From IMG/VR virus record IMGVR_UViG_2695420565_000003: a DNA stretch of 27,343 nucleotides, one strand, 5' to 3'. Below are positions 1 through 26,360 of the stretch, piece by piece. Positions within the stretch are counted from its first letter, which is position 1. Each line of letters begins with the position of its first letter. The notes beneath the pieces are model-generated. The model was not told the origin of the DNA. It was given only the letters and a program-made list of their open reading frames with translations, and did no database searches. A program made the position numbers and the translations under genes. The stretch is from a virus (taxonomy: Duplodnaviria; Heunggongvirae; Uroviricota; Caudoviricetes).

Positions 1-127
1 CTCCTCCGGCAGAAGCAGAAAAAGCTTATTATGCTTCCATCGGAAACGATGATCTGGCAGCCTGAGTTCACAGATAAAACACTCTCCAGGAAACCCGGGG
101 CGGTTCAAACAGATTAGCTCTCTGGAT

Positions 128-547
128 TTGGCTAAAGAATTTGGAAAGAGACATCAAGATGTTTTGCGTGACGTTAGGTTAGTTTCTAAAAATACAGGAA
201 TTGCTTTTGTTGAATCTGTGTATGTAGATTCCCAAAATCGAAAAAAGTGTCACTATATGCTGTGTGGACAATTAGCAGATGCGATGTATAAACGCTATAA
301 CGGCTTACGTTTTGGTTTATCTACTGCCGAAAAGATTGCTCTTAACACTATAGAACAAGTTTTAGGTATCAACCTGATTCGCCAGTGTCGGGTGTTAAAC
401 TATCGAATTGATGGTTATGATCCGGTTAATAATATAGCTTATGAAATTGATGAACCAGAACACCAGTACAAGAAAGAGCAAGACGAGATCCGTCAACGAA
501 GAATTGAAAATGAGTTAGGATGCAAGTTTGTCCGAATCAAAGTATGA
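128..547 (+). CDS. Rha-like DNA-binding N-terminus fused to a DUF559/Vsr-like PD-(D/E)xK nuclease-like C-terminus; putative homing-endonuclease-like or regulatory protein, with TTG start or a frameshifted 5' end
   Basis: The N-terminus 'LAKEFGKRHQDVLRDV' matches the Rha-family signature (FGKRHxNVLRDI) as I recall it. The C-terminus 'YRIDGYDPVNNIAYEIDEPEH...DEIRQRRIENELGCKFVRI' resembles the DUF559/Vsr-type endonuclease core. There is no ATG at the 5' end (the track start at 128 is TTG) and the frame is open back to 53. Stop is TGA. Confidence 0.5.
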   Translation: MAKEFGKRHQDVLRDVRLVSKNTGIAFVESVYVDSQNRKKCHYMLCGQLADAMYKRYNGLRFGLSTAEKIALNTIEQVLGINLIRQCRVLNYRIDGYDPVNNIAYEIDEPEHQYKKEQDEIRQRRIENELGCKFVRIKV

Positions 548-551
548 TTTT

Positions 552-580
552 AGCCTCGCCTAGTGCGGGGCTTTTTTGTT
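552..580 (+). terminator. Rho-independent terminator after the 128..547 gene
   Basis: Stem AGCCTCGC / GCGGGGCT (one G-U pair), loop CTAGT, followed by TTTTTTGTTTT. Confidence 0.6.
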
Positions 581-592
581 TTCTATAGGCAT

Positions 593-617
593 AAAAAAAG
601 CCACTCCGAAGAGTGGC
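593..617 (-). terminator. Rho-independent terminator for the minus-strand genes, back-to-back with the + strand terminator
   Basis: On the minus strand this reads GCCACTC-TTCG-GAGTGGC followed by TTTTTTT (the complement of the A-run at 593-599). Confidence 0.6.
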
Positions 618-632
618 AAAGAGAATCAAAAC

Positions 633-866
633 TCAAAAACCTGTTGCTTCTACGATCTGACCATCACCGATCTGAACATAGAATTTAATATCTAACTTCT
701 TGATATTTTTATAGAATTGAGCTACCGATATAGCGTGCTCACTAAGAATCTGTTCTTTCGCTTCCTTCCCGCGATCCGCTGTATAGTAAGCGTAGGCAAT
801 ATCAGCCATCTGTTCAGCGTTAAAACGGGCAGGGCGACCGCGAGTAGCTTTAGTAGTCATAGTCAT
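633..866 (-). CDS. Small putative DNA-binding protein (77 aa)
   Basis: Open frame with an AT-hook-like 'TRGRPARF' and a helix-turn-helix-like segment 'LSEHAISVAQFYKNIKK'. TGA stop. Co-directional with the 895..1500 gene. Confidence 0.45.
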   Translation of the reverse strand: MTMTTKATRGRPARFNAEQMADIAYAYYTADRGKEAKEQILSEHAISVAQFYKNIKKLDIKFYVQIGDGQIVEATGF

Positions 867-894
867 TTCTCCAAATTAAAGTGAATGTTCACCT

Positions 895-1500
895 TTATTT
901 AGAGGACTTACATTTTATCGGAAAAAGTTCTCCATCGTCAACCGACATAAAGAACTCTGCCTTAATCCCGTACTTCTTCAACCGTGAATAGTATGTACCC
1001 CGACTTATATCAACCTTGCGCAGCACTTCGAAGAACTCTTTAGGATTCCTGTAATAGTGGCTATATCGCACGTTAGCGAGTTCTACAAACAATTCCCTTG
1101 TATCACCATAGCCTTTCTTAAAAGCCACGTTACGATAGCGTGTAATGGCATGATTCAATCTCTTCTGTTTAAGCACTTCCCTAATCGGTGTCCACTGCAA
1201 CCGATAGATTGGACCGTCATCCACTCGATAGAATCGCTTAATGTCAAAATCAAACCATTCACGAACTCTATTAAACTCTGTCTGTGATGTTCGGTGCTTC
1301 TTAAAGAAGTTGTGAATATCGGTATACCCATGATCGCGATACAACTCGATTAAAATCTGTTTAGCTTCCTCGCGACTAAAGCCGGATGTTGTGTAATCAG
1401 TCTTCTTGTGATGGTGCTTAACTGGCAAACGATATTCATGATCGGTACAACAAGAAAAGGCTAATTCTAATACATCTCTTTGTTGCTGATTAATTAGCAT
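895..1500 (-). CDS. Hypothetical protein (201 aa) with a C-terminal HTH-like segment
   Basis: Long open frame divergent from TerL. '[19 protein letters not shown]' resembles a helix-turn-helix. Function unknown. Confidence 0.5.
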
Positions 1501-1587
1501 ACAACCCCCTTAAATCTTAATACCCGTATTTATCAAAATATCAACAATTTAATAAATACCTTCATATTTCGTAATGAGGGTAATTAC

Positions 1588-3492
1588 ATGAAACTGATTT
1601 CAAATAAGGCAAAATTAAAAAAGATTCTTAAAAATGCCGCAAAATATATCACTCCACCGCCTAAGCTCCTTCCTTCTGAATGGTGCGAAGCTAATATGGT
1701 GCTGGTAGATGGTCCTCAAGCTGGGGATAAAGTTAAATTACTGTCATTCCAGAAAGGCATGATTGATGCTCCTTTCCTTGAGAACAAGAAAAAGTATGTT
1801 CTGATGACCAGTGCGCAGATCGGAAAGACTACCATCCTGAACGGCATCCTGTTTAACCAGATGGCTAACGATCCATGCAATATGATTATCGGACAATCAA
1901 CCGCTAAAGAAATGTCTCAATATCTCGCGGGTAAGATCCGACCGTCTATCGAAGCATGTGATGCATTAAAAGACGTGGTTACAGACAAGAATGATCGCAA
2001 TGCGGTTAACAACAATAACCAGCTACAGCTAAAAACGAATCACTTCCTGTACATGGTATCGCTTACCAGTCCATCAACCCTACGTGGTAAGACCGCAAAG
2101 GTTGGGTTGCTTGACGAAATCGATGCTGCTACAGCCTCAGAAGAAGGTGATCCGGTGGCACTGGCTGCTAACCGTTTAACTACCTTTGGCGATGAAGGCC
2201 GATTAGTCGTATCCAGTACCCCGACCAGTAAGCTGGGAAGCATTAACCAGCAATGGTTATCAAGCGACATGCGTATGTTTTTTGTTCCGTGTCCGCATTG
2301 CGGGGAACACCAGGTGATCGAGTGGGAAAACGTTCAATTTGAATGGCGTAACATTGATGGTAAGAACTTACCCGATCCTGATACCGCTCGTTATATTTGC
2401 CCCCACTGTAAGAACGCATGGACAGAAGGGGAACGAATCAGGGCAGTAGCACAAGGCGAGTGGAGAGCAACCCGTGAAAGTGAAGTAGCCGGATTCTGGA
2501 TCAGTCGTCTGTATTCACCTTTCAGCACGATTCGCGCTTGTGTGGTTGATTTTAGTCATGCGTGGCAATCCTTTGATTTACAATCCTTTTTTAACACCGT
2601 GTTAGGCAAGGTATACGACGATCAGGACACGGCAGTAGAAGCAAATGAACTGGAACAACTCAAAACAGATGTTTCTATCGAGAATATCCCTGATGACGTG
2701 ATTTTCTTGTGTGCGGGTACTGACCAGCAATTAGATCGCGCAGAAACTACAATCATGGGCGTGGCAAAGGATAAGATTTATATTCTGGATCATCGCAGCT
2801 TTTACGATCATAACTGTGAACGATATGAATCCCCTGTATGGGATAGATTAATCAACTTCCATAAAACCAAATTTACTACTGTATCGGGTGATCGTGTTCC
2901 TATGCTCGCCAGCTTCCTTGATACATCGAACGGTCGATTCACTCAAGCTGGATACCGTATTTGCGGCAAGTGGAAGAACTTACACGCTATCAAAGGTAGT
3001 TCTGCTGGTAACGCTCCGATCATTCCGGTTAAACCTACCCGCACAGGTGGTCATGAATTGCTTATGTTGGGTGTTAATGTGGGTAAAACTGCATTTCGTG
3101 AAATGTTGGCTAGGAACCTGAAAGATAATCCTCATATTGGCTTAGAAATATCAGACACCGTTCCTGATGATTATCTCGATCAGCTTTTAAGTGAATCTGT
3201 CAAGCGTACTACTACTGGCGTGAGATGGGTAAAGAACCCAGGCGTTAGGAACGAGGCGCTCGACTGCGCCGTGTATGCTACAGCGGCTTCTCGCTACGTC
3301 CTTTCAAAAATGTCATGGGAAAAACTCGAAGCCATCAAAGATAGTTTGAACCGTGAACCAGAAGAATCCGTAGAAGCTCCTAAATCGCAATCTAACGAGC
3401 AAATCGAAGAAACTAAGCCAATCACACGACCACAACGTAAAAACATCGCCAGACGCCCAAATAGAGGCCGTAGCTGGGTAACATCGTTCTAA
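1588..3492 (+). CDS. terL: Terminase large subunit, lambda gpA family
   Basis: 634 aa. The N-terminus 'EWCEANMVL...[10 protein letters not shown]...[11 protein letters not shown]' parallels lambda gpA as I recall it. Also present are the 'CPHCGEHQ' and '[10 protein letters not shown]' zinc-ribbon-like motifs, '[17 protein letters not shown]' and C-terminal '[16 protein letters not shown]' (lambda: RNEALDCFVYALAALR). RBS GAGGG upstream. Confidence 0.92.
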
Positions 3493-3564: not shown

Positions 3565-4062
3565 ATGAGTTTAGAACTAATTCCCTTAGTAATTCGTAAA
3601 GGCGAAAAAATCACGCTGGCGAATGAAGAGGGTGTAACAATTCAGGTAGGAAATAGTAATAAAGGTATCATTTATCAGGTTGATGATACTCCGGCTAATC
3701 ACGAGATTAAAACGTTAGACTTTCCAGAAGGTAAATATACCATCTTAGCAACTTTTGACGATGAACTGGTATCAATGCAGGAATTAACTGTTTTGCCAGT
3801 ATTCGCCAAACAATCCAAAAAAGAATATCTGCGGGAAACTATCGCCTTAATCGAGCAAGTTATTTTCGCCCGTTTATCTGGGGACGAAGCCGCATTATCA
3901 GCAATGACAATAAAAGGGAACTCATTCGCTTATGAGTCATTGGGTGTTCTCCAGCAATTGAAGACTGATTATGAACGTCAGTTATCTAAATTAATTCAAG
4001 CCGAACGACGTAAACAGGGAATTAGCCCGATTAAAAATATCAAATTACGTCTTACGCGATAA
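3565..4062 (+). CDS. Hypothetical head-module protein (165 aa) between terminase and portal
   Basis: ORF preceded by the conserved AAGGGGTAAT-type RBS. No recognisable motif. Its position corresponds to lambda gpW but it is larger. Confidence 0.55.
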   Translation: MSLELIPLVIRKGEKITLANEEGVTIQVGNSNKGIIYQVDDTPANHEIKTLDFPEGKYTILATFDDELVSMQELTVLPVFAKQSKKEYLRETIALIEQVIFARLSGDEAALSAMTIKGNSFAYESLGVLQQLKTDYERQLSKLIQAERRKQGISPIKNIKLRLTR

Positions 4063-5629: not shown

Positions 5630-7639
5630 ATGCTTAAATTTCGCCGCGATCTTAACGGTTACGGTGGAGTTATTAACGAAGGGCATAACGATCAATACGA
5701 ATTTGAAATTGCTTTCTCCAGTGAACAGCCGTATCAGCGCCAATTCTGGGATGAGCAAAATCAAGAGATGGTGGTATTAGATGAAATTCTGGTACATACC
5801 CCGGAAGCGGTTGATCTGTCTCGTCTGAATAATAACGCTCCGTTGCTGTTCAATCATAATTTCGATAATCACATTGGTGTCGTTTGTAACGCTCGAATCG
5901 ATGCGGATAACGTAGGTCGTGCTCTGGTTAAATTCTCTAAGCATGGCACTTTGGCTAATGATATTCGCAATAAAGTCATTGAAGGTACGATGGAAAAAAT
6001 TTCTGTCGGTTATGACATTAAAGAATATCACATCGACTACACCAAAGGACAATTGATTGTTACTAAGTGGGCACCCTATGAACTCTCATTTGTCACCGTT
6101 CCCGCAGACGATACGGTCGGTTTAAATCGCTCTCTAAATACTATCACAGTTAATTTGGAGGCTAAACGCGATATGACTAAAGAACAAATCGAAGAAATCA
6201 AAGAAGAACAAGAATCCGCTCAGGTTGAAGAAACTCCGGTAGAAGAAAATAAAGAATCGGAAGTAGAAGAAACTCAAGAGCGCCAAGTTGAAGAGAATAA
6301 AGAAGATGAAAATCTCGAAGACGGAAAAGACGCTGAACATCCTGAAAGTGTTGATGATGATAGTTCAACTGTTCGGGAAACAGAAGAAGTAAAAGAAGAA
6401 CGTGAAGCTGCTCCGGTTGAAGAAGAAAAAATCGAAGAAGTGGCTGAACGTTCCGAAGAAGACGAATTAGAAATTCGCGAGATCGCTCGCGAACTTCTAA
6501 TTGACGACGAAGAATTGAAACGCGCATTGGCAATTAAAGACATGACGCCGGAAGCATTCCGCACTAAGGCACTAAATAATCTCGTCAATGCTCAACGTAA
6601 TAACGAACAACAAATTAAGGACTCTAAAATGGAAAAAACTTTTGACCTGAACAACGTAATTCGCTCTCTGGTAGATGGTGAAGCTCTGGGTGCTAACGAA
6701 GCCGAGTTTTCTGCAATGGCTGCTACTGCAACTATGCAGCGTGGTCGTGCTGCTCGTGGTGGCTCTGTATTCGTTCCGGCTGCTGCTATGCGTGCTGCTG
6801 CTGCTGGTAACACCAAAGCTACTCTGACTGCTGTTACTGATGAAAAACTGCTGACTGAATCCTACATCGAAATGCTGCTTCCTGCTTCGTGTCTGGGTCG
6901 TCTGGGCGTGACCGTCCTGTCTGGTCTGAATAGCCCGATCGCTGTTCCGAAAATGACTGCTTCTAGCGTTGAAGCCTTTGGTTTTGTTGATGAAAATGGT
7001 GCTGCCCCCGAGTCACATGCGGAATTTTCGAACGTGAAAATGGCTCCGAAAACTTTTGCTGGTGGCAACCCGATCAGCCGTCAATCTCTGAAAACTGTTC
7101 CTAATATCGCTACCCTGATCACTGATCACATTAACAAAGCTGTTCGCATCAAACTGGAACAACTGATTCTGTCTGATAAAGAAAATGCTCGTGGTCCGGC
7201 TGGTCTGGTTAAACAACTGGTAGACGCTAGCCGCGTGACTAAGAAAACCGCTTTCAGCTACAAAGACCTGTTGAAAGAGATTGCCGCATTGACCGACGCT
7301 GGCGTTCCTGCTCAGGCGATCAAGTTCGCTATGAGTGGTGCAACTGCTGCTGAACTGGAATCTACCCCGAAATCTGATCGTGGTGACGCTCAAGGCTTCA
7401 TTATGGAAAACGGCAAAATTGCTGGTTATGAAGTAGTTACTTCTGGCGTTATTCCGGCAGATACGATCGTTCTGGGCGATTTCAGCGGCATTATCGTTGG
7501 GGAATGGGGAGGTCTTGAGCTAGATCTGGACGATTCAACGTACCGTGCACAGTCTGCGATCGTGCCTCGTGTATGGCTGGATTTGGACTACGTTGTAGCA
7601 CAGCCGGAAGCTCTGAAAGTTCTCCAGATTGGCGAATGA
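5630..7639 (+). CDS. Fused prohead protease (HK97/S78-type) + acidic scaffold/delta region + major capsid protein
   Basis: The N-terminal ~170 aa carry HK97-protease-like motifs ('LLFNHNFDNHIGVV', 'KISVGYDI', 'YELSFVTVPADDT'). A highly acidic E/K-rich coiled-coil segment follows, then a ~330-aa capsid-like C-terminus. It is one uninterrupted frame. Stop is TGA. Confidence 0.85.
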   Translation: MLKFRRDLNGYGGVINEGHNDQYEFEIAFSSEQPYQRQFWDEQNQEMVVLDEILVHTPEAVDLSRLNNNAPLLFNHNFDNHIGVVCNARIDADNVGRALVKFSKHGTLANDIRNKVIEGTMEKISVGYDIKEYHIDYTKGQLIVTKWAPYELSFVTVPADDTVGLNRSLNTITVNLEAKRDMTKEQIEEIKEEQESAQVEETPVEENKESEVEETQERQVEENKEDENLEDGKDAEHPESVDDDSSTVRETEEVKEEREAAPVEEEKIEEVAERSEEDELEIREIARELLIDDEELKRALAIKDMTPEAFRTKALNNLVNAQRNNEQQIKDSKMEKTFDLNNVIRSLVDGEALGANEAEFSAMAATATMQRGRAARGGSVFVPAAAMRAAAAGNTKATLTAVTDEKLLTESYIEMLLPASCLGRLGVTVLSGLNSPIAVPKMTASSVEAFGFVDENGAAPESHAEFSNVKMAPKTFAGGNPISRQSLKTVPNIATLITDHINKAVRIKLEQLILSDKENARGPAGLVKQLVDASRVTKKTAFSYKDLLKEIAALTDAGVPAQAIKFAMSGATAAELESTPKSDRGDAQGFIMENGKIAGYEVVTSGVIPADTIVLGDFSGIIVGEWGGLELDLDDSTYRAQSAIVPRVWLDLDYVVAQPEALKVLQIGE

Positions 7640-25325: not shown

Positions 25326-25362
25326 TAGTAGTGAATATTATTTTATTGAGGATTCACTACTA
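25326..25362 (+). promoter_or_regulatory. Perfect 11-bp inverted repeat spanning the RBS and start codon of the 25362 gene
   Basis: TAGTAGTGAAT-(15 nt, containing TGAGG)-ATTCACTACTA. The right arm ends at the A of the ATG. Confidence 0.5.
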
Positions 25363-26360
25363 TGAATAATACTTTAGCAAAGGATATCGAATTTACCGCA
25401 AAAAGCAAACGTGCGACCCCTCCGGTCGAATATGAAACCAGAATCATTAAAGTTTGTCAAGCGCATGGATGGTTATACAGTGGTTTTGTGCTTCCTGTAA
25501 AGAAACCATTCCAGAACACCAAAGTTTGCATAGAAGTTAACGGAAAGGTTAAAACGCCATGTATTAGTCATGTTCTAACTGGTCAGTTTACTGGCAAAGA
25601 TAGAGTATCACCGCCTAAGAAGAAGTTTAGATTTACCGAAGAAGAACACTTAGAAAACGCTCGCAAGTTCTACAAGCCGATAGGGTGGGATGTGTTAGGT
25701 CTGGCTGAACCTTATCAGGGTGTTGACACTAAACTAATTCTTCGTTGTAAGTGCCACGGAAAGATTCACAAGAAAGGTGATTTACACAATAACCGCAGAC
25801 AAGGCGGGTTAACATGCCCTTTGGTTAGGGGGGTACTTAAATCAATTCAGAATGGTAGAAAACAGGTTATCAGAAACAAGTTTGCACAGCGCCCTATGCA
25901 CTTTTATCTAATTCGTGTTGGCGAGAAGTTTTTCAAATATGGAATTACCACTCGCAAAGATCCGATGCAACGGGTAAGAGAACACCAGAAGCACACCAGC
26001 GAGAAAATCACCTTTGAATGCTCACATTTGTTTAACATTGGATGGAAAGCTGGTGATTTAGAAATGGGGATTAAAAAGAATATTCAGGGCAAGAAAATCC
26101 CACGTAAGGTAATGAATAGCGGATTCACAGAAACGCTACCGATTAGCAAGCTGAAAGATGTTAAATCATTCATCAATGAATACATCCACACCAACCCATC
26201 TAAGCCAATGTATTTTGATGATACCAACGCAATCAATCTGAACAACTACATTAGTGATGAAGACATAGAACGAGATTTATCGCAGTGGATGAATGCACCG
26301 TTAGCTGATTTAATACCGGAAGACTTAGAACTCGATTTAAGCCCATTAGAGACACTCTAA
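25362..26360 (+). CDS. T5orf172 / GIY-YIG-like domain protein with an N-terminal Cys/His-rich region
   Basis: 'FYLIRVGEKFFKYGITTRKDPMQRVREHQ' has GIY-(x10)-YIG spacing followed by Arg residues, and the later 'SGFTETLP' resembles the T5orf172 GxTEWF box. The N-terminal half has 'RCKCHGKIHKKGDLH...CP'. Confidence 0.55.
   Translation: MNNTLAKDIEFTAKSKRATPPVEYETRIIKVCQAHGWLYSGFVLPVKKPFQNTKVCIEVNGKVKTPCISHVLTGQFTGKDRVSPPKKKFRFTEEEHLENARKFYKPIGWDVLGLAEPYQGVDTKLILRCKCHGKIHKKGDLHNNRRQGGLTCPLVRGVLKSIQNGRKQVIRNKFAQRPMHFYLIRVGEKFFKYGITTRKDPMQRVREHQKHTSEKITFECSHLFNIGWKAGDLEMGIKKNIQGKKIPRKVMNSGFTETLPISKLKDVKSFINEYIHTNPSKPMYFDDTNAINLNNYISDEDIERDLSQWMNAPLADLIPEDLELDLSPLETL

What the first reader, a model, noticed from the sequence alone, without database searches (positions are those of the whole stretch)
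548..1587. No small terminase gene next to the gpA-like TerL; an opposite-strand module sits in its place
In lambda-type packaging modules the small subunit gene lies immediately upstream of the large one on the same strand. Here the 1.5 kb upstream of TerL holds two minus-strand genes for putative DNA-binding proteins (201 aa and 77 aa) that end at back-to-back terminators against the Rha/nuclease gene. Either the small subunit is encoded elsewhere, or this is an inserted accessory (moron-like) module, or one of these DNA-binding proteins has an unconventional packaging or regulatory role. The 1501-1587 intergenic region should then hold divergent promoters and possibly the packaging site.
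Basis: inference. Interest (0 to 1): 0.5.

Follow-up and report, generated by a model that had tools for sequence, protein, structure and literature searches.

The report
Small terminase displaced, not missing
The phage's small packaging subunit is not absent: in relatives it lies about 7 kb upstream of the large one, outside this window. The two opposite-strand genes in its usual place most likely encode regulators of the late genes, so the finding is mostly ordinary.

Summary
A gpA-type TerL (1588-3492) is preceded by two minus-strand genes (201 aa, 895-1500; 77 or 75 aa, 633-866). These end at back-to-back terminators, and no ORF in the window matches any small-terminase family.

The small subunit is encoded elsewhere. 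All relatives of this ~37-kb Enterobacterales prophage, including ten contigs with 100% identical TerL, carry a 183-186-aa Nu1-like terS. It lies 6.5-7.3 kb upstream of terL on the same strand, next to attL. The evidence is PHROG 57 at E=1.5e-10 and hhalign at 95% against the Nu1-like TerS of FoX1, ECO1230-10 and phiRSP. The window cannot show this gene because an IS629 end (1-107) and the window edge cut it off.

The 201/77 pair is not a moron. It is present in every relative and has normal GC content. It is also not TerS-like.

The pair holds three copies of a lineage-specific domain predicted as a three-helix HTH plus hairpin. A fourth copy sits in a 60-aa early protein. The pair diverges from terL across an 87-bp region conserved above its flanks, which holds a 34-bp palindrome centred on overlapping -35 boxes.

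The most likely role is regulation of the late operon, with autoregulation. This is inferred, not shown.

The parts
1..107 (.). Right end of insertion sequence IS629. It marks the left limit of the prophage DNA visible in the window.
   Evidence: 100% matches to IS629 ends annotated in Stx phages. Relatives align to the window only from base 108 onward.
108..547 (+). 5'-truncated remnant of a 156-aa gene: a Rha-like N-terminus fused to a Vsr/DUF559-like nuclease domain. The remaining ORF is 128-547 (139 aa, TTG start). This is variable cargo, absent from many relatives.
   Evidence: Phage_pRha E=2.3e-5 (below the cut-off), DUF559 E=0.0027, PADLOC mREase_II E=5.6e-7. The intact 156-aa gene is present in L014, L015, L017 and L053-L056.
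552..617 (.). Back-to-back intrinsic terminators, 552-572 on + and 617-600 on -. They separate the rightward Rha unit from the leftward 201/77 operon.
   Evidence: Homology with relatives that carry a different upstream gene starts at about 590.
633..866 (-). Gene for a 77-aa protein (more likely 75 aa, starting at 860). It has an N-terminal RGRP arm, then three helices and a beta-hairpin. It is a paralogue of the C-terminal domain of the 201-aa protein and of a 60-aa early protein. Proposed binder of the intergenic palindrome.
   Evidence: No Pfam, PHROG, NCBIfam or PADLOC hit. AF2 pLDDT 70.7: H17-29, H34-43, H48-58, hairpin 63-73. hhalign to the 201-aa C-domain 86%, E=4.9e-6; to the 60-aa protein 97.5%, E=7.6e-12. 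The third-helix residues IS.AQFYK are invariant from E. coli to Proteus.
895..1500 (-). Gene for a 201-aa protein with two tandem copies of the same three-helix plus hairpin domain (about 40-101 and 134-194). It is the first gene of a bicistronic operon with the 77-aa gene.
1501..1587 (.). Divergent control region. It holds a 34-bp palindrome at 1526-1559 (GTATTTATCAAA-N10-TTTAATAAATAC). The candidate leftward promoter is -35 TTGATA (1544-1539) with -10 TATTAA (1522-1517). The candidate rightward promoter is -35 TCAACA (1541-1546) with -10 CATATT (1563-1568). Shine-Dalgarno sequences are present for both genes.
   Evidence: Palindrome; it occurs in about 1% of shuffles and is unique in the element. 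Hexamers, below the threshold of the generic scan. The region is 86-87% identical (core 88-94%) where both flanking genes are about 63% identical. The outer 8-bp arms are invariant even in Proteus.
1588..3492 (+). Large terminase subunit, lambda gpA type. First gene of the late operon: head, tail, lysis.
   Evidence: GpA_ATPase and GpA_nuclease, phrog_15. All later structural genes are on the + strand.
3565..4062 (+). 165-aa protein in the gpW position between terL and the portal gene. It is head-tail joining-like and not a small terminase.
   Evidence: phrog_5774 'head-tail joining', E=1.2e-8. Syntenic genes in FoX1 and ECO1230-10 are annotated 'head-tail joining'. Homologous to the DCP80 gene after terL.

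Best explanation
The window is the late-gene part of a ~37-kb temperate siphovirus-like prophage of Enterobacterales, which integrates by a large serine recombinase. The window's left end is cut by an IS629.

Its packaging enzyme is an ordinary lambda-type pair, a Nu1-like TerS and a gpA-like TerL, but the two genes are split. In this phage family terS sits next to attL behind a conserved ~300-bp leader. The phage's whole control region lies between terS and terL: about 9 genes in several transcription units over 6.5-7.3 kb.

The 201-aa and 75/77-aa genes are the last unit of that control region. They form a conserved two-gene operon encoding paralogous predicted DNA-binding proteins. The operon is transcribed away from terL from one of two back-to-back promoters. 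The -35 boxes of the two promoters overlap at the centre of a conserved 34-bp palindrome.

Most likely one or both proteins bind this palindrome, and so control the late operon (terL through lysis) and their own synthesis. The small protein is the better candidate, because its presumed recognition helix is invariant like the palindrome arms. The sign of control, repression in the lysogen or activation late in infection, cannot be told from sequence.

Shown: gene order, homologies, conservation, the predicted folds, the palindrome.
Inferred: DNA binding, the promoters, the regulatory role, that the source genome still carries terS, and that cos lies near terS.
For: terS elsewhere:
- The 184-aa protein of relative L001 hits phrog_57 'terminase small subunit', E=1.5e-10, over nearly its full length.
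- Its family profile aligns to the Nu1-like TerS (PF07471) of FoX1, ECO1230-10 and phiRSP at hhalign 95.4%, E=1.9e-8, over 139 columns.
- There are weak Phage_Nu1 hits in 4 of 7 members and weak hits to lambda Nu1 structures.
- Some sources name members 'terminase small subunit'.
- It has the Nu1 layout: an N-terminal HTH-like segment, a helical middle and an acidic tail.
- The gene is at the same place in all loci, including 10 of 10 contigs with TerL identical to the window's.
- The phages with homologous head modules have this type of TerS directly before terL.
- DCP80, the nearest phage record (TerL 44.7%), shows the same split.

201/77 as a core regulatory pair:
- The pair is always present and always divergent from terL.
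- There are four copies of one domain in three proteins of the element.
- The predicted fold is three helices plus a hairpin, and the best fold matches are HTH DNA-binding domains.
- The intergenic region is an island of conservation with a palindrome and overlapping divergent promoter-like hexamers.
- Terminators on one side and opposite-strand genes mean the late operon needs a promoter here (inference).
Against: - terS is not visible in this window, and the source genome could not be found. An IS629-associated deletion of the left arm cannot be excluded.
- The TerS assignment rests on remote homology. Pfam Nu1 hits are below the cut-off.
- The promoter hexamers are sub-threshold, and the rightward -10 is altered in Salmonella.
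- In Proteus the palindrome arms are 8 bp further apart, which is awkward for a rigid dimer.
- The conserved core could partly reflect its role as a recombination junction between mosaic alleles.
Confidence: 0.7

Rival explanations
1. One or both of the 201/77 proteins take part in packaging. They could be a cos/pac recognition factor or an adaptor working with or instead of the distant Nu1-like protein, with the conserved palindrome next to terL as (part of) the packaging site.
For: Position directly beside terL. A conserved palindrome lies 30-60 bp from the terL start. The proteins are predicted to bind DNA. Precedents exist for extra HTH proteins that redirect TerS specificity, such as PICI Rpp (PMC6739421, listed; not read in detail).
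Against: No similarity to TerS. No predicted oligomerisation core or TerL-binding tail. A bona fide Nu1-like TerS is conserved in the element. The same 201-aa allele pairs with TerL alleles 58% versus 94% identical to the window's. The arm spacing of the palindrome varies by 8 bp, which is unlike a nicking site. DCP80 has the homologous terL without this pair.
Confidence: 0.08
2. The pair is an accessory (moron-like) or immunity/exclusion cassette unrelated to late-gene control, carried with its own promoter and terminator.
For: It is a self-contained unit with its own terminator and promoter-like hexamers. The proteins have no known family.
Against: It is present in every relative, whereas the neighbouring genes (Rha variants, the 156-aa nuclease, DUF2158) vary. 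GC content of 0.41-0.42 lies within the element's range. No PADLOC hit. The domain is shared with an early-region protein of the same phage.
Confidence: 0.07
3. The small protein, or the pair, is an excision or recombination-directionality factor for the large serine recombinase, or otherwise acts on att or ori DNA rather than on the late promoter.
For: It is a small basic HTH-plus-hairpin protein of Xis-like size. No RDF is otherwise identified in the element.
Against: It is encoded about 25 kb from the integrase gene. The only conserved symmetric site found for it lies at its own promoter. RDFs of serine integrases usually bind the integrase, not DNA (general knowledge, not tested here).
Confidence: 0.07
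4. In this particular genome the prophage is defective. The IS629 insertion is associated with loss or rearrangement of the left arm, so terS really is absent here even though the family has one.
For: IS629 interrupts a gene at the window edge. The junction was not found in GTDB representative genomes or complete E. coli genomes, so the far side is unknown.
Against: A simple IS insertion is the commoner event. The late region in the window is intact and 97-100% identical to relatives that have terS.
Confidence: 0.2

Closest known systems
Lambda terminase genes Nu1-A with cos
   Same: TerL has the gpA ATPase and nuclease domains. The family's TerS has the Nu1 layout and weak Nu1 matches. The portal is of the lambda family, and a gpW-position gene follows terL.
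   Different: terS and terL are not adjacent or co-transcribed. They are 6.5-7.3 kb apart, with about 9 genes between them on both strands. The cos site is unmapped.
Nu1-like terS/terL modules of Xanthomonas phage FoX1, Escherichia phage ECO1230-10 (Jilinvirus) and Ralstonia phage phiRSP
   Same: These are the nearest annotated phages by head module: TerL 29-31% identity, a 'head-tail joining' gene, the portal, and a fused protease-capsid gene. Their TerS is homologous by profile comparison.
   Different: In those phages terS lies 0-0.8 kb upstream of terL on the same strand, with at most one gene between. None has the 201/77 pair.
Escherichia phage DCP80 record (PQ671644), sipho-like part
   Same: Closest TerL (44.7%). 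Homologous 165-aa, portal, capsid and 277-aa genes. Its terS-like gene is also separated from terL by opposite-strand small genes, and one small ORF carries the same HTH-like domain.
   Different: It has no 201/77 pair. Two unrelated small + strand genes (60 and 92 aa) precede terL. The record mixes T4-like genes and may be chimeric.
P2/186-type head gene cluster (terS gene M and terL gene P in divergent operons)
   Same: It is a precedent for small and large terminase genes lying in different transcription units (general knowledge, not tested here).
   Different: The terminase families differ, and capsid genes rather than a control region lie between the two genes.
Hin/resolvase- and Tc3/CENP-B/Myb-type three-helix HTH domains; phage late activators such as Mu C
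   Different: The scores are not significant (Z no higher than 4.5). There is no sequence-family membership. An extra C-terminal beta-hairpin is present. Function is untested.

Membership tests
Lambda-type (Nu1/gpA) terminase module | Large subunit with gpA ATPase and gpA endonuclease domains | tested here: met
   PF05876 E=1.9e-56, PF20454 E=1.7e-45
Lambda-type (Nu1/gpA) terminase module | Nu1-like small subunit encoded by the same element | tested here: inconclusive
   Absent from the window itself. Present in all relatives: phrog_57 E=1.5e-10 and hhalign 95.4% to Nu1-like TerS, with Pfam Nu1 only sub-threshold. The source genome beyond IS629 could not be read.
Lambda-type (Nu1/gpA) terminase module | Small-subunit gene immediately upstream of, and co-oriented with, the large-subunit gene | tested here: not met
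   terS is co-oriented but lies 6.5-7.3 kb upstream, with opposite-strand genes and terminators between.
Lambda-type (Nu1/gpA) terminase module | cos site (cosN and cosB) adjacent to the small-subunit gene, giving cohesive ends | not testable with these tools
   Only a conserved ~300-bp leader upstream of terS was seen. No virion-end data are available.
Small terminase subunit (any family), as a candidate identity for the 201-aa and 77-aa proteins | Match to a TerS profile, or to the TerS of related phages | tested here: not met
   No Pfam, PHROG or NCBIfam TerS hit. hhalign to the family's TerS gives 0.1-0.2%.
Small terminase subunit (any family), as a candidate identity for the 201-aa and 77-aa proteins | Central oligomerisation domain and a C-terminal TerL-binding segment | tested here: not met
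   The AF2 models show only HTH-like domains plus hairpins and a disordered N-terminus or linker. Binding to TerL itself was not testable.
HTH transcription regulator with an operator at its own divergent promoter | Helix-turn-helix DNA-binding fold | tested here: inconclusive
HTH transcription regulator with an operator at its own divergent promoter | Conserved symmetric site overlapping promoter elements between the regulator gene and the target operon | tested here: met
   The 34-bp palindrome at 1526-1559 is centred on overlapping -35-like hexamers. It is conserved above its flanks and unique in the element.
HTH transcription regulator with an operator at its own divergent promoter | Protein binds the site and changes transcription | not testable with these tools
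   Needs EMSA or footprinting and reporter assays.
Moron (accessory gene cassette) | Variable presence among otherwise related phages, often with deviant base composition | tested here: not met
   Present in all relatives. GC content is ordinary.

The most novel reading that the evidence does not exclude
The 201-aa and 75/77-aa proteins represent a new family of phage DNA-binding proteins: an RP-arm plus three-helix plus hairpin domain, four copies per genome, with no relatives outside this prophage clade. In this reading they couple late transcription to packaging. Binding at the palindrome next to terL would both switch on the late operon and help recruit or position a terminase whose small subunit is made from a distant, separately controlled gene. 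That would make this a lambda-type system in which packaging specificity or timing is set by a third, non-TerS factor.
Probability: 0.1. Interest if true: 0.55.

Novelty: new variant of a known kind. Interest (0 to 1): 0.3.

Why it matters
For annotation, a missing terS next to a gpA-type terL should not be read as absence. In this widespread, uncharacterised prophage family of E. coli, Shigella, Salmonella and Proteus, and in the DCP80-like relative, the Nu1-like gene is split from terL by the whole control region and is mostly labelled 'hypothetical'.

Biologically, the split means the two terminase subunits are under separate transcriptional control, which is unusual for lambda-type modules. 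It also points to a small family of lineage-specific DNA-binding proteins and a well-defined 87-bp control region that could be tested directly. Beyond that, the locus is an ordinary phage late-gene junction.

Tried and rejected
Searches on the 201-aa and 77-aa proteins that found nothing informative:
- Pfam, PHROGs, NCBIfam and PADLOC gave no meaningful hits.
- tblastn of the 201-aa protein against 50,697 phage records found no match.
- A HMMER profile search of 1.84 billion representatives found only the family itself and fragments.
- A profile of the shared domain against PDB sequences found nothing significant.

Other rejected readings:
- The 165-aa protein as TerS: rejected. It matches a head-tail joining family and is syntenic with such genes.
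- The palindrome half-site as a regulon motif elsewhere, for example upstream of terS: no second site found.
- Rfam on the relatives' control region, including the terS leader and the 1.27-kb gap: nothing.

Attempts to find the source genome across the IS629 junction all failed:
- exact junction search in GTDB genomes;
- megablast in complete E. coli genomes;
- exact look-up of the truncated 139-aa product.

IMG/VR contigs gave no information on genome termini, because they are trimmed proviruses. Two literature searches for split terS/terL arrangements returned nothing specific to this family.

Full report
**1. What is in the sequence**

- A 139-aa ORF on the + strand lies at 128-547.
- Two convergent terminator-like hairpins lie at 552-572(+) and 617-600(-).
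- Two minus-strand genes lie at 633-866 (77 aa) and 895-1500 (201 aa).
- An 87-bp AT-rich spacer (28% GC) lies at 1501-1587.
- A 634-aa gene at 1588-3492 is an unambiguous gpA-type large terminase: GpA_ATPase E=1.9e-56, GpA_nuclease E=1.7e-45, phrog_15 E=4.8e-141.

Downstream come a 165-aa gene (phrog_5774 'head-tail joining', E=1.2e-8), a lambda-family portal and a fused protease-major capsid gene. After these come siphovirus tail genes, an endolysin, an endonuclease-like gene and the C-terminal part of a serine integrase.

None of the window's ORFs matches any small-terminase family in Pfam, PHROGs or NCBIfam.

**2. What the window is**

Bases 1-107 are the right end of IS629. From base 108 the window aligns at about 97-98% with E. 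coli contigs that carry the same prophage without the IS. In those contigs the IS target is a 156-aa Rha-like/nuclease gene, and the IS sits 31 bp inside it.

In a complete genome (NZ_CM136169) the element is about 37 kb. It is inserted in hicB and bounded on the right by a 560-aa serine recombinase. Relatives occur in E. coli, Shigella, Salmonella and Proteus and at other integration sites.

No isolated phage of this family is in the phage collection. The nearest TerL, at 44.7% identity, is in the DCP80 record.

**3. Where the small subunit is**

The non-structural genes of the relative L001 were scanned. The 184-aa product of L001:13901-14452(+) hit phrog_57 'terminase small subunit' (E=1.5e-10, residues 4-169).

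Its sequence has the Nu1 layout: an N-terminal HTH-like segment, a helical middle and a long acidic tail.

The phages whose head modules are homologous to this one are FoX1, ECO1230-10 and phiRSP. Each has a 168-174-aa Nu1-family TerS (PF07471, E=5e-8 to 3e-12) directly upstream of terL.

A profile of the 184-aa family aligns with a profile of those three TerS at hhalign probability 95.4%, E=1.9e-8, over 139 columns. Supporting hints are weak:
- sub-threshold Phage_Nu1 hits in 4 of 7 members;
- E about 0.2-1 to lambda Nu1 and other TerS structures;
- the name 'terminase small subunit' given by some sources.

The gene is at the same place in every locus examined: co-oriented with terL, next to attL, and 6.5-7.3 kb upstream of terL. 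This includes all ten contigs whose TerL is 100% identical to the window's.

A profile of this family finds nothing in any six-frame ORF of the window. This is expected, because the window ends at the IS629, only 1.5 kb upstream of terL.

DCP80 shows the same split. Its terS-like gene (E=8.9e-22 to the profile) follows the endolysin. It is separated from terL by a block of minus-strand small genes. So the split is an old feature of the clade.

I could not find the source genome to check the far side of the IS.

**4. What the two minus-strand genes are**

They are not small terminase. hhalign probabilities to the family's TerS are 0.1-0.2%.

They are not a moron.
- The pair lies next to terL in every relative, while the genes beyond the terminators vary: different Rha alleles, the 156-aa nuclease, a DUF2158 gene.
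- Their GC content (0.41-0.42) is within the element's range.
- There is no defence-family hit.

AlphaFold models from family alignments give the following.
- For the 201-aa protein (pLDDT 71.9): a poorly predicted N-terminus followed by two similar units of three helices plus a beta-hairpin, at residues 43-101 and 135-187.
- For the 77-aa protein (pLDDT 70.7): a disordered N-terminal arm containing R-G-R-P, then one such unit.

The units are homologous.
- The 77-aa protein against the C-terminal unit of the 201-aa protein gives 86%, E=4.9e-6.
- A 60-aa protein of the relatives' early region matches the 77-aa protein (97.5%, E=7.6e-12) and the N-terminal unit of the 201-aa protein (92.6%).
- A profile of the unit finds exactly these four copies per element.

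The best structural matches are three-helix HTH DNA-binding domains: CENP-B, Myb, Tc3, Hin, Tn3 resolvase, sigma region 4 and Mu C. All have Z no higher than 4.5, which is not significant on its own. Foldseek against viral models and a sequence profile against the PDB gave nothing.

The 201-aa family has no relatives outside this prophage group among 1.84 billion representative proteins. DNA binding is therefore a reasonable prediction, not a result.

**5. The 87-bp spacer**

It holds a 34-bp palindrome at 1526-1559: GTATTTATCAAA-N10-TTTAATAAATAC, with 11 of 12 arm positions complementary.
- An inverted repeat this good arises in about 1% of shuffles of the spacer.
- The paired half-sites occur nowhere else in the element.

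The best sigma-70-like hexamer pairs are TTGATA-16-TATTAA on the minus strand (9 of 12) and TCAACA-16-CATATT on the plus strand (8 of 12). Their -35 boxes overlap at the centre of the palindrome. Both pairs fall below the threshold of the generic scan, which reported none here.

The spacer is an island of conservation. Against L004 and Salmonella L007 it is 86-87% identical (core 88-94%), while the 201-aa gene and the first 600 nt of terL are each about 63% identical. In Proteus the outer 8-bp arms are intact, but they lie 8 bp further apart.

The presumed recognition helix of the small protein (IS.AQFYK) is invariant from E. coli to Proteus. This parallels the invariant arms. The helices of the 201-aa protein differ between alleles. 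For that reason the small protein is my preferred binder.

The late operon has terminators and opposite-strand genes upstream, so it must have a promoter in this spacer (inference).

**6. Mechanism proposed**

terS and terL belong to separate transcription units. The 201/77 operon and the late operon start back to back. A protein bound to the palindrome would cover the spacers of both promoters, and so control both the late genes and its own synthesis.

Sequence alone cannot say whether it represses in the lysogen or activates late in infection.

Packaging itself is expected to follow the lambda scheme, with the Nu1-like protein recognising a site near its own gene. The conserved ~300-bp leader upstream of terS contains the GC-rich palindrome GTCGC-TAC-GCGAC and is a candidate for that site. 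This is untested.

The conserved basic N-terminus of TerL (MKLISNK.KLK) and the acidic tail of TerS are compatible with a lambda-like subunit contact. This is also inference only.

**7. Rivals**

- A packaging role for 201/77 is disfavoured. There is no TerS-like feature, a proper TerS is present, and one 201-aa allele pairs with TerL alleles only 58% identical to each other. The arm spacing is variable, and DCP80 has the homologous terL without the pair.
- An accessory or moron role is disfavoured by the pair's universal presence.
- An excision-factor role cannot be excluded, but it has no positive evidence.
- Whether this particular copy has lost its left arm through IS629 activity is open.

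**8. Verdict**

The absence of terS next to terL is real but explained: the gene is displaced, not missing. The split Nu1/gpA arrangement and the private family of HTH-like proteins are modest novelties in an uncharacterised but common enterobacterial prophage family. Interest is low to moderate.

Noticed in passing
window 1-107: Right end of IS629, inserted 31 bp into a 156-aa Rha-like/Vsr-DUF559-like nuclease gene that is intact in close relatives. The prophage copy in the window may therefore be disrupted or rearranged on its left side.
   Followed up: partly
L001 13650-13900 (relative NZ_CM136169); same region in L004-L017: About 300 bp of conserved non-coding leader upstream of the Nu1-like terS. 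It starts with AAGACTTGACA and contains the GC-rich palindrome GTCGC-TAC-GCGAC. It lies within a few hundred bp of attL in some relatives. It is a candidate cos/cosB region, and it has no Rfam hit.
   Followed up: partly
L001 16730-17998: A 1.27-kb stretch without convincing ORFs lies between the divergent 60-aa/coiled-coil operon and the 155-aa/110-aa/Rha operon of relatives. It could be an origin, a switch region or a non-coding RNA. No replication gene or cI-type repressor was recognised anywhere in the ~37-kb element.
   Followed up: partly
window 1588-3250 versus L004, L005 and L012: TerL is mosaic. The N-terminal ~550 residues exist as two allele types 58% identical to each other. The breakpoints lie at the conserved intergenic core and near window 3250. 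The 201-aa gene also has two allele types (about 50% identical) that assort independently of the TerL types.
   Followed up: partly
L002 and L052 (PQ671644, Escherichia phage DCP80): The record is labelled Gaprivervirus (141 kb). It combines a siphovirus-like head/tail/lysis block homologous to this prophage with T4-like genes (motA, rIIA, ndd). It looks like a chimeric assembly or a mislabelled record.
   Followed up: no
window 5630-7639: Fused prohead protease (Peptidase_S78) and major capsid protein in one 669-aa ORF, with an acidic low-complexity linker. The same fusion occurs in the related FoX1, Jilinvirus and phiRSP head modules.
   Followed up: no
window 9453-13067: A 1204-aa T4 gp34/gp37-like long tail fibre gene (Gp34_trimer, Peptidase_S74) sits between the head-completion genes and the major tail protein gene. 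This is an unusual position for a fibre gene in a siphovirus-type tail cluster. It is replaced by other alleles in relatives.
   Followed up: no
window 25362-26360; L001 12479-13543: A 332-aa endonuclease-like protein (phrog_681) lies after the lysis genes. In some relatives a paralogous 354-aa T5orf172/GIY-YIG-like gene sits at the opposite prophage end beside terS. In the circular phage genome both would flank attP and the terS leader.
   Followed up: no
window 860-866: The 77-aa ORF has two in-frame ATGs (866 and 860). GGAG spacing favours the second, and gene callers in relatives give 75 aa.
   Followed up: yes
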